Assembly: GCF_026571515.1 (NCBI RefSeq)
Contig: NW_026865473.1
Span: 1-64,000 of the forward strand
Reading direction: 5' to 3'
DNA from: Ruditapes philippinarum
Lineage: Eukaryota
Length of the DNA: 64,000 nucleotides
The position numbers were made by a program. Positions 28,701-64,000 of the stretch are shown in pieces. Every line of letters starts with the position of its first letter. The first letter of the stretch is position 1.

Positions 28701-31700
28701 AAATGTGATTTTTCTGAATTCTGTATAGAGATACAATTGACGCTCTCTAGAATCTTCTCTTTTATTTTGTGTGTACCGTTATATGTCTATAATTATCATG
28801 TTGAAACTTTATAATTGTACTATTCATTGATTAGTTTATATTGCATTCATTTTCATGTTTGTTTACGATGAAAATACAATGCAATAGAAACACATCTTAA
28901 TAATACATTACATTTGTCACTAACATTTCGAGTGGAACGCTGGTTCATAAAATGTTGGATATAGTGTTTGATTAACTTTTGTTATTTTTGCTAATATCAA
29001 AATATAAAATGTACAGGATTACATNNNNNNNNNNNNNNNNNNNNNNNNNNNNNNNNNNNNNNNNNNNNNNNNNNNNNNNNNNNNNNNNNNNNNNNNNNNN
29101 NNNNNNNNNNNNNNNNNNNNNNNNNNNNNNNNNNNNNNNNNNNNNNNNNNNNNNNNNNNNNNNNNNNNNNNNNNNNNNNNNNNNNNNNNNNCTAAAATTT
29201 CATTTTAATGAAAATTGGATAATCAGTCTGCTATTTGTTTTTCAGATCGCCAATGAAAGCAATACCGCACAGCATCCATAGGAGAGTTTGATAATGGATT
29301 TACAGCAGATATGATCGTAGGAATGTGTGATAATCTATTAATCATTACTAAAGGGAATAACCATAGTGAATATTGAAAACTGGATTGAATAACTGACGAT
29401 GTTTTAACACGGTTTTGATTCCTCGATTCATACAAGTACATCGTTACATTTCTTTATCAACAAGGACTTCAGTCAAAGAAGTGTTTTGAGTTCTTTGTCA
29501 TATTTAACTTAATTGTGAGCGTGTGTGAGGTCTTTCTTAACATTAAACTTTGTAAGTGTTAAAAGTTCTTGGATGGTGATACTGCGATATTTATAGTGCA
29601 ATTTTGGAAATTATCTATTGGCATACAACATAATTTGTAGAAACGTGTGATTCATATATGATATAGGAATATTATAGTTGATACGAAAGCACCACAAACA
29701 GGATGATGGTACACAATAGACTGTCGGCTTCCTGGTAAGTAACAGTTATTGTATTCGATTCTAAATCTTTAGCATTAGTTTACCTATTCATGGCATTTTG
29801 TAAGCACTTTTCGCGTACAATTTATTTTAACTTATCTTCATGTATTGTGTTCTATTTGAGAACAAAATATTTTAATGTAAACAACATTTTGGTCATCCCG
29901 GCGTTTTCGTTTAGTGACCACGCTGTTTGTCCATAAACATTTAATGTAATACATGTACTATCAAAGCTAGACGCTGTTTCCGTTTGACATATGGAAGCTT
30001 ATTTTGAGGTCACTGAGATACTCTGATGTCCAAAGTACTTTTTATTTATTTGTTGTTTTTTTTTTCTTCTATTACACCGCATTTTAACCTAACAGACTGC
30101 TAAGCGAAAATCATATTGCTAAAACAAGAGCATTCCAATGACACGTTTGCAGACCGGTTGCAATAAACCTGATATATGCTAAAGATCATCTTCACGGTTA
30201 TACACCACTAAATTCCACTAAATTATATTGGTCCAAAATCATAAAAGTGACCTCTCACATACACGGACTATAGAAAGGATTAAAGACTGGTCAGCTACTT
30301 TCCTGACTGATATATTTGTCCTTCTACATGCAGCAGACAAAGATAAAAAAACTCATTTTGACAAGTATTTGTCCTCTTAAATGGTATAAACCCATACAAG
30401 GACGAATTTAAACAACTGATTGGTTATATTTTACATAATTGTTTAAATCATTTTCACATTATCGTGATAAAAACAAATTGTTTTCATTGGATTATTAAAA
30501 GTAGTCACTGACTATAGCGTCCATTAAATTCATTTTTTTGCCATTCATTTTCACGTACCTTATTAAGAGATAGAACAACCAGTCATACGGAAGTATCACC
30601 TTTATATTTTTATTTCATGTGTAAATGTAATAACCATGGAAATAAAAAGTTGATTATTATACTTATGGAGAAGGTAAGTACTGAAGTACCGGGTATCTGT
30701 ATAATTGATATAATATTAAAACGTATACAGTTTAGTGATGAAATGAATGCGGAGAAACCATTGAAAGAAGCAGCATTTAATCAATCATCAAATGATGCGT
30801 GAAAAAGTTCTTCACAGTCATGATAGCTGCCGAGCGTTAATTATTAACCTTGGTTGAGCTGCTTCTGTCAAGGTAGGCGAGAATTGATCACATGGAGGGA
30901 AGACCGCTGGATTGAATCAATACTCAATGTAATGATTGTGTCTTTGAAAGCTGTCTTTTGCAGTTTTATGTGGATGATTGATATTAAAGAGTTATTGAAC
31001 AAAAATGATTTACGTGACACTCTTTGACAGAAATAGATTTGTTTTATAGCATGTGCTTCATTCCGTAATAGAAAATAAGGGTTGCATATGCGTATATTAA
31101 CAATGCCTTCTAATTTGGGATTATGTCTTTTAAACGAGTTGCAAATTGTGAGTATGGGTACAACAATTTGCATGATTTTAATAATCTAACACAAAATACA
31201 AGCAACAAATTGTGCAATGTTGTTTCAGTTCATCATATTTAATTGCATTAGCTTTGCAAAATATAAATGATAAATTAAGATCATTATATTGTGCGTCAAA
31301 ATTGAATTTTTCAAAAAGAAACAGGGGACACCCGGGTTCGAACCGGGGACCTCTCAATCTGCAGTCGAATGCTCTACCACTGAGCTATATCCCCTTGGTA
31401 TAAAGGAAATAGTTCTCCTATTTTTAAAACATTCCGCATATTGATTGTAATACAACAATCTTATCTACTAGCATTACGTTACGATCACAGATAATGAATT
31501 GTAAGCGAAGTATAAGTTGATAAAATTGGATGCGACAAAATTTCGTGTGAACTTTAAAGTGATATAGCTATGTAAGGCCACATGTGTCACAAATCACATT
31601 CGTCACAATTGTGAAGAATGAGATCACATTCGTCACAAATTTTGTGATGCATGTGATCCAATGTTTTAGACAATCACATTCGTCACGAGTTTAAAATCAC

Positions 31701-61700: not shown

Positions 61701-64000
61701 CAGTTATCAAATGAAATATTAGACCGACGGTATTTCACTTTAATGAGACAAGTTATCAATATCAGGTTTCATTACAAAAACATTATTTGCAAGAATTTCT
61801 TGTGATAGAGTTTATGTAGCTAAATAGCCTATTGCTATTGACACAATGGCCTTGCAAATGCAATATGGATAATGATTATGTCTTTCATACCAATCTGCTT
61901 GTGTGAATTGATTTTTTCTAATCATTATGATGAAATTAATTGAAAAGAAATTTGTGTGAGTTTGGCATCTTTCGTAATTACTTACATAAAAAGATGACGA
62001 ATTAGAAATAACCAGACGCGCATCAAATACATTTTAAGAATTTATGTTGTGGTGATATAAACATGTGTATTTGTTCTTGCTTTGACACAAAAGTGCGATA
62101 GCAGCTCTTACTGATGTAAGGTAGTTTCAGAGTGGTACAAATAAAAGTTTAAGGGGACACCCGGGTTCGAACCAGGGACCTCTCGATCTGCAGTCGAATG
62201 CTCTACCACTGAGCTATATCCCCTTCTTACAATTGTCTTTATCGTTCTTTAAACTCTTATCTTTACTACTTCACCACATGTTGCCGTTATCAAATTAATA
62301 CTATCTATTTCCACAAAACAAGCCAATACACTAGCTTTAAACAAATTACTGTAATTATTGTCATCTTGTCACATTTTGCAATAGTTTATAACTTCTATTT
62401 TTGTCTTCAAAACAATATAATGAAGTATTGTTTTGCTATTGATTAGACGTTTATAAATAATGCACAATCAGAAATAAATATGCAGAGATAGCTCATAATT
62501 AATCTTGAATCAAGTTTACCATCAAAGAAATTAGATAGATGTGAATACATTATAAAAATATTGGCCTTAAAATGTTTGCAGGCATCATCTTGGTTTTGAG
62601 CCATAGACCTTTCGATTTCTAGGCGGACAGTTCAACCACGTCGCTCAATTGCTTACCCTAAAAGTAATGCTGTTGGAAGTCGCATGAACATATACCTTGG
62701 AGGAAATTTTTCCGCCTACTTGTTGAATTAAGCAGTATGTTATTGTTTCTGTTGCATCATCTTGTCATAATTGTCAACATACTGTCAATTGTCTTTTTTT
62801 AACGAATAGAGACGTTTCGAAATATGGTTAACACGCCAAGTATGCTATATTAAAATTATATGCGTCAATGACTTTCATTTTGTTATATTTTTTGTGGGTT
62901 TCTTTAATGTTGTAGAAGGTAATTCAGTTGAAGGTCATGGTTATCTAGTTACAATGAAACATGCTCTTCTAGTACATTTTTAACAAGAAAATATAAAATA
63001 AATGTATTGTGTCCGTTTGTTTGAATTCTAGTTCTTGGGTCTTTTCTCTTATGCTGTTAAAAAACATTGTCAGTATTTGTAATTATCGAATAAAATACTC
63101 GACAGTATTTTCAATATAATGAGACAAATTTTAAATATCAGGTTTCATTACTTAAACAGTATTATCAAGTATTTCCTGTGCTGTAGCTTAATACACTTTT
63201 GCCAAGGGCATGATGTCCTTGCAAATGCAATAAAGATGAAGAATGTGTCGTTTTTCTCGGTGTACTCGTGCAAATCAAAGTTTGCCATAACAGAAATACA
63301 TTGAAAAGAAATTTGTTGTGAATTTGGCATTTATCTTAATTAATTACATAAAAAATATGCCGAATCAGTTATCACCAGATGCCAATCAAACATATTTCAG
63401 CATTTATGTTGTGATGATATAAACATGTGTATTTGTTCTTGCTTTGACACAAAAGAGCGATAGCAAAAAAAAACTGTAAGCTCTTATTGTTGTGAGGAAG
63501 TTTCTGAGTGGTACAAATAAAAATTTAAGGGGACACCCGGGTTCGAACCGGGGACCTCTCGATCTGCAGTCGAATGCTCTACCACTGAGCTATATCCCCT
63601 TCTTAGCTTATAATTTATCGTTTTATGAACGTTTTATCTTTACTACTTTACCACATGTTGCCGTTATCAAATTAATACTATCGATTTCCACAAAACAAGC
63701 CATTATATCAGCTTTAAACAAATTACTGTAATTATTATCATCTTATCACATTTTTTCAATGATTATAACTTCTATTTTTGTCTTAAAATAATATAATGGA
63801 GTATTGTCTTGCTTTTGATAAAGTTTATACAGATGTTTCTGTCAAAAATAAATAAATCGTTCTTTAATATTTCCATTTTTGACAATTTTGTCTTGCTGCG
63901 CTAATTGGTAAAAATCTTTGCATGGTTTGATCGAAATCAGATAATTAAAATGTTTAATGTTTGTTACAGATATTTTCTCCGAATGGGAATGATAAAAATG

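What the first reader, a model, noticed from the sequence alone, without database searches (positions are those of the whole stretch)
31323..63599. Single-isoacceptor tRNA-Cys(GCA) array: eight frozen genes in eroding, homologous kilobase spacers
Seen: eight genes on one strand, start-to-start spacings 7479, 3723, 5477, 7167, 4010, 2973 and 1376 bp, and no other intact tRNA species. The genes differ from consensus by at most 1 nt, while the spacers are clearly homologous but carry many substitutions, indels and private transposons. Flanks pair up as sisters (4/5 and 7/8; 1/3 share the trailer), implying repeated rounds of duplication. Inference: purifying selection keeps many copies active (tRNA-Cys dosage for Cys-rich secreted proteins, or a Pol III/TFIIIC chromatin-boundary role). 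Single-isoacceptor Cys clusters are known in vertebrates, so this may be a convergent expansion.
Basis: partly seen in the sequence, partly recalled or inferred. Interest (0 to 1): 0.65.

Follow-up and report, generated by a model that had tools for sequence, protein, structure and literature searches.

The report
Tandem tRNA-Cys gene cluster, ordinary kind
Eight intact cysteine tRNA genes sit head-to-tail in 32 kb of gene-poor, AT-rich eukaryotic DNA; they arose by repeated local duplication and stay almost identical while their surroundings decay, a pattern already well known for tRNA gene families.

Summary
The core observation holds. Eight tRNA-Cys(GCA) genes lie on the minus strand at the stated spacings, with no other tRNA in the window. 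Each differs from the consensus by at most 1 nt.

"Homologous spacers" is true only for copies 4-8. Their flank tree is ((4,5),(6,(7,8))). Copies 1-3 share only the gene plus about 10-17 nt with the others.

All eight keep 21 of 21 stem pairs, the GCA anticodon, a T discriminator and identical A- and B-box regions. Seven of eight have a T4-5 run within 6 nt downstream; copy 6 does not.

The flank tree length of 1.18 substitutions per site predicts about 85 changes in 72 neutral bases. At most 2 events are seen, both C-to-T changes giving G-U pairs.

A truncated relic, a gene-less paralogue of one unit and private transposon insertions fit birth-and-death evolution after tandem duplication. A tRNA-free unit of about 7 kb is triplicated next door, so duplication here needs no tRNA-linked selection.

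Dosage and boundary roles are untested. The kind is known in Arabidopsis, vertebrates and Drosophila. The organism was not identified. Low interest.

The parts
31323..31394 (-). tRNA-Cys(GCA) copy 1. It has one C-to-T change in the anticodon stem, giving a G-U pair. T5 run at +6.
38802..38873 (-). tRNA-Cys(GCA) copy 2, consensus sequence. T4 run at +5.
42525..42596 (-). tRNA-Cys(GCA) copy 3, consensus sequence. T5 run at +6.
42465..42511 (-). Truncated tRNA-Cys relic covering linear positions 10-56, with 3 mismatches in 47 nt. It lacks both acceptor strands and lies 13 nt behind copy 3.
48002..48073 (-). tRNA-Cys(GCA) copy 4. It has a C-to-T change in the T stem, giving a U-G pair. T5 run at +5.
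55169..55240 (-). tRNA-Cys(GCA) copy 5, with the same T-stem variant as copy 4. T5 run at +5.
59179..59250 (-). tRNA-Cys(GCA) copy 6, consensus sequence. The first run of four or more T lies only at +160.
62152..62223 (-). tRNA-Cys(GCA) copy 7, with the same T-stem variant as copies 4 and 5, although its flanks are sister to copy 8. T4 run at +6.
63528..63599 (-). tRNA-Cys(GCA) copy 8, consensus sequence. T5 run at +5. It lies 400 nt from the window end, so the array may continue.
47216..48845 (.). Flank block around copy 4, homologous to 54376-56140 around copy 5 (79% over 1796 aligned columns).
54376..56140 (.). Flank block around copy 5, the partner of the copy-4 block.
58457..59477 (.). 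Flank block around copy 6, 68-69% identical to the blocks around copies 7 and 8.
61628..62455 (.). Flank block around copy 7, 80% identical to 63006-63829 around copy 8.
63006..63829 (.). Flank block around copy 8.
52031..53604 (.). Spacer block in the 4-5 interval, homologous to 56523-58411 in the 5-6 interval (74-86%).
56523..58411 (.). Partner spacer block in the 5-6 interval. It carries the private 196-bp insert.
51134..51947 (.). Older spacer blocks upstream of copy 4, 66-67% identical to 59938-60892 upstream of copy 6. A piece recurs at 63884-63996 upstream of copy 8.
36349..37275 (.). Gene-less paralogue of the copy-2 neighbourhood. It matches 38182-38509 and 39137-39634, and 171 bp stand where the partner holds 627 bp including copy 2.
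31570..35935 (.). Private 4.37-kb insert with perfect 39-nt terminal inverted repeats, starting 175 bp upstream of copy 1. Its GC is 0.36, against 0.30 for the rest of 26.7-64 kb. No Pfam domain was found. It looks like a non-autonomous DNA transposon.
57998..58193 (.). Private 196-bp insert (GC 0.47) with an internal palindrome, absent from the paralogous 4-5 spacer. It looks like a small interspersed element.
   Evidence: related unnamed predicted proteins

Best explanation
This is a loose head-to-tail cluster of eight ordinary nuclear tRNA-Cys(GCA) genes in gene-poor, AT-rich eukaryotic DNA that is not vertebrate-like. Each gene is its own RNA polymerase III unit, with an internal A box and B box and, in 7 of 8 copies, a T-run terminator a few bases behind the gene.

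The cluster grew by repeated tandem segmental duplication of a unit carrying one gene. Indels and transposon insertions then stretched the units to 1.4-7.5 kb. The family evolves by birth and death. Copies that stay intact are held almost invariant, mainly by purifying selection on the 72-nt tRNA sequence, perhaps with occasional short gene conversion. Other copies are truncated or deleted.

Shown: gene integrity, the duplication history of copies 4-8, the excess conservation of the genes, and the lost or broken copies. Inferred: Pol III transcription, that selection rather than conversion dominates, and that copies 1-3 are older tandem duplicates.
For: Gene integrity. Eight tRNA-Cys genes score 66.9-70.2 bits against a cut-off of 29. 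All 21 stem pairs are standard in 8 of 8 copies, with anticodon GCA, T at the discriminator position and identical A- and B-box regions in 8 of 8. None has CCA encoded after the gene (sequences). A run of four or more T lies within 6 nt in 7 of 8.

Tandem origin. All eight are on one strand. Homology in copies 4-8 covers both flanks. The flank tree is ((4,5),(6,(7,8) 92%) 100%) on 461 ungapped columns.

Constraint. Tree length of 1.18 substitutions per site gives about 85 expected changes in 72 nt, against at most 2 events seen. Both variants are stem C-to-T changes that keep pairing as G-U. In the 18 pairs that involve copies 1-3, identity is 1280/1296 in the gene, 70/180 in the 10 nt upstream and 95/180 in the 10 nt downstream, where the shared T-run lies.

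Birth and death. A relic 13 nt from an intact copy has 3 mismatches in 47 nt and lacks both ends. A paralogue of the copy-2 unit lacks the gene.

Context. No protein-coding content was found: 0 of 267 ORFs of 50 aa or more reach a Pfam cut-off, and the longest stop-to-stop frame is 140 aa. The literature describes the same behaviour for tRNA families in general (PMC4981973, passages).
Against: There is no expression, Pol III or chromatin evidence. Copy 6 has no run of four or more T before +160 and may be impaired.

The T-stem variant is shared by copies 4, 5 and 7, while the flanks make 7 the sister of 8. That needs either a recurrent hit or a conversion confined to the gene. CpG observed/expected is 0.93, so CpG hypermutability gives no easy excuse for a recurrent hit.

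The flanks of copies 1-3 show no homology to the others, so their origin by tandem duplication rests only on shared orientation and proximity. Clustered tRNA genes can be silent (PMC7544208, abstract). The genome-wide tRNA-Cys count and the organism are unknown.
Confidence: 0.72

Rival explanations
1. Concerted evolution of a largely redundant or silenced array. The copies stay alike because short gene conversions among them, or from active tRNA-Cys genes elsewhere, overwrite mutations. On this view selection on each copy is not the cause, and most copies contribute little tRNA.
For: The T-stem variant in copies 4, 5 and 7 conflicts with the flank tree. Intergenic conversion is documented for tRNA families (PMC4981973, passages). 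Arabidopsis tRNA clusters, including a tRNA-Cys one, are transcriptionally silent (PMC7544208, abstract; PMC10701932, Introduction). Copy 6 lacks a nearby T-run.
Against: The flanks of copy 7 next to the gene follow copy 8, not copies 4 and 5, so no conversion tract is visible outside the gene. The relic 13 nt from copy 3 has drifted (3 of 47) and was not homogenised. Only structure-preserving changes are seen. CpG observed/expected of 0.93 gives no sign of heavy germline methylation.
Confidence: 0.18
2. One reading: the expansion is an adaptation that raises the tRNA-Cys supply for abundant Cys-rich secreted proteins.
For: Eight intact same-isoacceptor genes have been kept despite flank divergence of up to about 45%. 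Nothing else supports it.
Against: No test is possible in the window. A tRNA-free unit of 6.6-8.1 kb next door is triplicated with similar or younger divergence (75-91%), so duplication here needs no tRNA-linked advantage. Copies are also being lost. The genome-wide Cys gene count and codon use are unknown.
Confidence: 0.1
3. The array serves as a TFIIIC/Pol III chromatin boundary, and its value lies in the number of B boxes rather than in tRNA output.
For: B-box regions are identical in 8 of 8 copies. tRNA genes and a tRNA tandem repeat are implicated as boundaries in human (PMC4041453 and PMC5607496, passages).
Against: The whole 72 nt is conserved, not only the boxes. No flanking genes to insulate were found in 64 kb. 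No conserved non-tRNA motif is shared by all units.
Confidence: 0.04
4. The copies are not genes but tRNA-derived SINE heads or retro-copies, or the array is an assembly artefact.
For: Two N runs lie below the array, and interspersed repeats are present.
Against: The cloverleaves are perfect and the Rfam scores high. There is no encoded CCA and no shared SINE body behind the gene. Homology extends on both sides of the gene in copies 4-8. The flanks are diverged, so these are not collapsed or duplicated reads.
Confidence: 0.02

Closest known systems
Arabidopsis thaliana chromosome 5 tRNA-Cys-GCA cluster (PMC10701932, abstract and Introduction read)
   Same: It has a single isoacceptor (Cys-GCA), head-to-tail repeats, an accompanying tRNA-Cys pseudogene, transposon sequences inside the cluster, and copy gain and loss.
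   Different: The units there are 0.4 kbp and regular with four genes; here they are 1.4-7.5 kb and irregular. Helitrons are reported there; here there is a TIR-bounded element and a small palindromic insert. That cluster is reported as epigenetically silenced; the state here is unknown. The tRNA sequences were not compared.
Homogeneous tDNA clusters across eukaryotes (Bermudez-Santana et al. 2010, PMC2888827, passages)
   Same: Adjacent tRNA genes of one isoacceptor family in parallel orientation, a pattern the paper reports as dominant in drosophilids, Monosiga and Tetrahymena.
   Different: That survey calls tDNAs clustered only if they are less than 1000 nt apart. The smallest gap here is 1304 nt, so by that definition none of these pairs counts.
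Human 1q23.3 tRNA tandem repeat (PMC4041453, passages)
   Same: Kilobase-scale units (7.3 kb) carry tRNA genes, and between species only the tRNA genes and one motif are conserved while the rest of the unit is not.
   Different: There the units are 98% identical, GC-rich, hold five tRNA genes of four isotypes on both strands and bind CTCF. Here there is one Cys gene per unit, AT-rich DNA and 55-87% flank identity.
Vertebrate tRNA-Cys clusters (human chr7 and chr17, mouse chr6) and zebrafish chromosome 4 tRNA arrays
   Same: Many same-isotype genes lie in one region. Zebrafish repeat-encoded tRNAs are maternally deposited (PMC11417395, Discussion passage).
   Different: The vertebrate Cys clusters are recalled, not checked here. 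One search shows only one tRNA-Cys-GCA gene listed on human chr7. This window is not vertebrate-like (GC about 30%, CpG observed/expected 0.93).

Membership tests
Eukaryotic nuclear tRNA-Cys(GCA) gene (Pol III type 2 unit) | Cloverleaf tRNA recognised by a covariance model | tested here: met
   8 of 8 score 66.9-70.2 bits against Rfam RF00005, cut-off 29. 21 of 21 stem pairs are standard in 8 of 8.
Eukaryotic nuclear tRNA-Cys(GCA) gene (Pol III type 2 unit) | Anticodon GCA and U73 discriminator (identity elements, recalled) | tested here: met
   GCA and T at the discriminator position in 8 of 8.
Eukaryotic nuclear tRNA-Cys(GCA) gene (Pol III type 2 unit) | Internal A box and B box (consensus recalled) | tested here: met
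   The D-arm and T-arm regions are identical in 8 of 8. The match to the consensus was judged from memory, not scored.
Eukaryotic nuclear tRNA-Cys(GCA) gene (Pol III type 2 unit) | Run of four or more T just downstream as terminator; no encoded CCA | tested here: inconclusive
   A T4-5 run lies at +5 or +6 in 7 of 8. In copy 6 the first such run is at +160. No copy has CCA after the gene.
Eukaryotic nuclear tRNA-Cys(GCA) gene (Pol III type 2 unit) | Transcription by Pol III and aminoacylation with Cys | not testable with these tools
   No expression or occupancy data are available.
Homogeneous tDNA cluster as defined in PMC2888827 | Neighbouring tDNAs less than 1000 nt apart | tested here: not met
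   The gaps are 7407, 3651, 5405, 7095, 3938, 2901 and 1304 nt (from coordinates). The definition comes from a passage.
Homogeneous tDNA cluster as defined in PMC2888827 | All members of one isoacceptor family, in parallel orientation | tested here: met
   8 of 8 are Cys(GCA) on the minus strand.
tRNA gene cluster in the looser sense (a region holding only tRNA genes; PMC10701932 Introduction) | No other genes between the tRNA genes | tested here: met
   0 of 267 ORFs of 50 aa or more reach a Pfam cut-off. There is no other Rfam family at gathering score. Short exons could have been missed.
Regular tandem-repeat tRNA array (Entamoeba, Arabidopsis Ser-Tyr-Tyr cluster, human 1q23.3) | Constant unit length and high identity between units | tested here: not met
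   Units measure 1376-7479 bp. Flank identity is 54-87% among copies 4-8 and undetectable for copies 1-3. Tandem Repeats Finder reports nothing in the array.
tRNA-derived SINE or retro-copy | Degenerate tRNA-like head, a shared body or tail downstream, homology on the 3' side only | tested here: not met
   The tRNA is intact. Homology lies on both sides in copies 4-8 and on neither side in copies 1-3. There is no CCA or A-tail.

The most novel reading that the evidence does not exclude
The window may catch only the old, eroded edge of a much larger single-isoacceptor tRNA-Cys array. Spacings shrink towards the window end (7.5 kb down to 1.4 kb), and the last gene lies 400 nt from the end. Such an array in an invertebrate-like genome could be kept for a lineage-specific need, either high Cys decoding demand or stage-specific (for example maternal) tRNA supply as proposed for zebrafish repeat-encoded tRNAs. 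Copies at the edge would be the ones escaping homogenisation.
Probability: 0.15. Interest if true: 0.45.

Novelty: new member of a known kind. Interest (0 to 1): 0.2.

Why it matters
It matters little beyond annotation. The locus is a clean small example of birth-and-death evolution in a tRNA family. It holds intact copies, a truncated relic, a unit that lost its gene, and dated flanks. Its trailers are copy-specific, so each copy's expression could be measured. If the array proved much larger, or tied to unusual Cys demand or stage-specific expression, it would become a useful model for why single-isoacceptor tRNA arrays arise. As it stands it confirms known behaviour.

Tried and rejected
1. 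Protein content. 20 selected ORFs and then all 267 stop-to-stop ORFs of 50 aa or more were scanned against Pfam. None reached a curated cut-off. Four sub-threshold matches appeared: YxzE 17.9 bits against a cut-off of 40, FOXP-CC 19.8/28.9, RNase_H 19.3/25.8, DUF7191 17.6/27.

2. Six-frame read-through with stops as X.

3. Naming the organism. The ORF at 57836-58063(-) found 22 of 23 candidates. Among longer proteins it found 20 of 27. All are unnamed 'hypothetical protein' records from one source, so there is no taxon. I did not follow them.

4. Searching the tRNA sequence in papers. A 40-nt stretch matched 0 papers. The first try exceeded the word length limit.

5. Decayed tRNA copies. The Rfam search at E<=1 and the flank-plus-gene profile found only the 47-nt relic.

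6. A decayed gene in the paralogue at 36.3-37.3 kb. None was found.

7. Upstream control element. The roughly 220-bp upstream block is better kept than the downstream flank between subfamilies (64-67% against 42-51%). It is not better kept within the young pairs (86 against 89%, and 83 against 86%). I read this as a duplication breakpoint just behind the gene, not as constraint.

8. MFE folding gives the cloverleaf for only one of three variants. That is usual for tRNAs, so I relied on the covariance model and explicit pair checks.

Not available: any eukaryotic genome collection, so there was no genome-wide tRNA count, no synteny and no extension beyond the window. Supplementary files of papers were not consulted. 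The one call with wrongly formed search terms was redone.
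Full report
**What is there**

ARAGORN predicts eight tRNAs in the 64-kb window. All are tRNA-Cys with anticodon GCA, and all lie on the minus strand. Rfam at gathering threshold returns the same eight and nothing else, at 66.9-70.2 bits against a cut-off of 29. Relaxing to E<=1 adds four sub-threshold, non-tRNA matches and no further tRNA.

The 72-nt genes differ from their consensus at two sites only. 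Copy 1 has a C-to-T change in the anticodon stem, and copies 4, 5 and 7 have a C-to-T change in the T stem. Both sites are CpG in the consensus, and both changes keep the pair as G-U. All 21 stem pairs are standard in all eight copies. The anticodon is GCA, the discriminator is T, and the A- and B-box regions are identical throughout. No copy encodes CCA. Seven copies have a run of four or five T starting 5-6 nt behind the gene. Copy 6 has none before +160.

**Setting**

- GC is 26-36% per 2-kb window and CpG observed/expected is 0.93. This is AT-rich eukaryotic DNA without vertebrate-type CpG depletion, and I do not take it for human.
- The longest stop-to-stop frame is 140 aa.
- None of the 267 frames of 50 aa or more reaches a Pfam cut-off. 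A weak RNase H match at 27118-27294 suggests a decayed retroelement.
- Two N runs lie at 24120-24281 and 29025-29191 and were left alone.
- The organism could not be named. The only protein-level matches were unnamed predicted proteins, and no eukaryotic genome collection was on hand.

**Are the spacers homologous?**

Only in part. Self-BLAST and a five-way alignment show that copies 4-8 share flanks on both sides of the gene. Over the ungapped columns within 250-300 columns of the gene, flank identity is:

| Pair | Flank identity |
|---|---|
| 4 vs 5 | 87% |
| 7 vs 8 | 85% |
| 6 vs 7 or 8 | 70% |
| 4/5 vs 6/7/8 | 54-59% |

An ML tree of 461 ungapped flank columns gives ((4,5),(6,(7,8) 92%) 100%) with a total length of 1.18 substitutions per site. 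Further spacer blocks recur between units: 52031-53604 with 56523-58411, and 51134-51947 with 59938-60892 and 63884-63996. Copies 4-8 are therefore a degraded tandem array whose units were stretched and trimmed by indels.

Copies 1, 2 and 3 are different. A profile of the 4-8 flanks aligns to them only over the gene plus about 10-17 nt. '1/3 share the trailer' comes down to ten identical bases that include the T-run. Their origin by older tandem duplication is an inference from shared orientation (probability 0.008 by chance for eight genes) and proximity.

- A 5'- and 3'-truncated tRNA-Cys relic covering linear positions 10-56, with 3 mismatches in 47, lies 13 nt behind copy 3.
- The neighbourhood of copy 2 has a paralogue at 36349-37275. 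There 171 bp stand where the partner holds 627 bp including the gene.
- Two private insertions are documented:
  - a 4.37-kb element with perfect 39-nt inverted ends, starting 175 bp upstream of copy 1;
  - a 196-bp palindrome-bearing insert in the 5-6 spacer that is absent from the paralogous 4-5 spacer.
- The tRNA-free half of the window holds its own tandem triplication of a 6.6-8.1-kb unit at 75-91% identity.

**Selection or conversion?**

The genes are far better conserved than their flanks. For the ten pairs among copies 4-8, the probability of the observed gene identity at the flank rate is 8e-5 to 7e-20. The flank tree predicts about 85 substitutions in 72 neutral bases, and at most two events occurred.

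Conservation ends exactly at the gene borders. In the 18 pairs that include copies 1-3, identity is 1280/1296 in the gene, 70/180 in the ten bases upstream and 95/180 in the ten downstream, where the T-run lies. The only changes tolerated preserve base pairing, and the broken relic has drifted although it sits next to an intact copy. These points favour purifying selection with birth and death.

Against a pure selection account, the T-stem variant is shared by copies 4, 5 and 7, although the flanks of copy 7 are sister to those of copy 8. This needs either a recurrent hit or a conversion confined to the gene. CpG observed/expected of 0.93 gives no support for CpG hypermutability here. The flanks of copy 7 right at the gene follow copy 8, so no conversion tract is visible beyond the gene. 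The question stays open on this sequence alone.

**Comparison with what is known**

- Paralogous tRNA genes keep nearly identical sequences while their loci turn over, and clusters form by tandem duplication (PMC4981973, passages).
- Homogeneous, parallel tRNA pairs are common in several eukaryotic lineages. That survey requires gaps under 1 kb, which none of these pairs meets (PMC2888827, passages).
- Arabidopsis has a tRNA-Cys-GCA cluster with a pseudogene and transposons (PMC10701932, abstract and Introduction), and its clusters are silent (PMC7544208, abstract).
- Zebrafish repeat-encoded tRNAs appear to be maternal (PMC11417395, passage).
- A human tRNA tandem repeat with 7.3-kb units conserves only the tRNA genes and a CTCF site between human and mouse (PMC4041453, passages).
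- Vertebrate tRNA-Cys clusters are recalled, not verified here.

The present array is a further, irregular member of this known kind.

**Verdict**

Conservation and repeated duplication are real, but activity, Cys dosage and a boundary role are untested. The adjacent tRNA-free triplication shows that duplication in this region needs no tRNA-linked advantage. Interest is low unless the array proves much larger beyond the window end.

Noticed in passing
window 5932-26642: A tandem triplication of a tRNA-free unit of about 6.6-8.1 kb. The unit starts lie near 5932, 12455-12495 and 20550-20588. Identity is 75-91%, and the second and third units are the closest (90.6% over 2767 columns). One N run lies inside the third unit. 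No Pfam domain or Rfam family was found in it.
   Followed up: partly
window 34230-34382: A near-perfect 75-nt hairpin (95% complementary arms, 3-nt loop) lies inside the TIR-bounded insert. It explains the weak sub-threshold Rfam mir-599 match (36.4 bits against a cut-off of 94). There is no evidence that it is a microRNA.
   Followed up: no
window 27118-27294 (+): A sub-threshold RNase H match (19.3 bits against a cut-off of 25.8). It is probably a decayed retrotransposon fragment, about 4 kb beyond the lower end of the array.
   Followed up: no
window 57836-58063 (-), overlapping the insert at 57998-58193: A frame across the small palindromic insert matches dozens of unnamed predicted proteins at up to 96% identity over about a third of its length. 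This is what an interspersed repeat translated by gene callers would look like. The sources were not pursued.
   Followed up: partly
window 19152-19273 and 42885-43006: A 123-bp segment is shared at 83% between the tRNA-free triplication and the spacer upstream of copy 3. It is the only link between the two halves of the window and is probably a small interspersed repeat.
   Followed up: no
window 47397-47658 and 54561-54854: These are weak second matches (E about 1e-5) to the downstream-flank part of the 4-8 profile. They suggest a local internal duplication in the trailers of copies 4 and 5.
   Followed up: no
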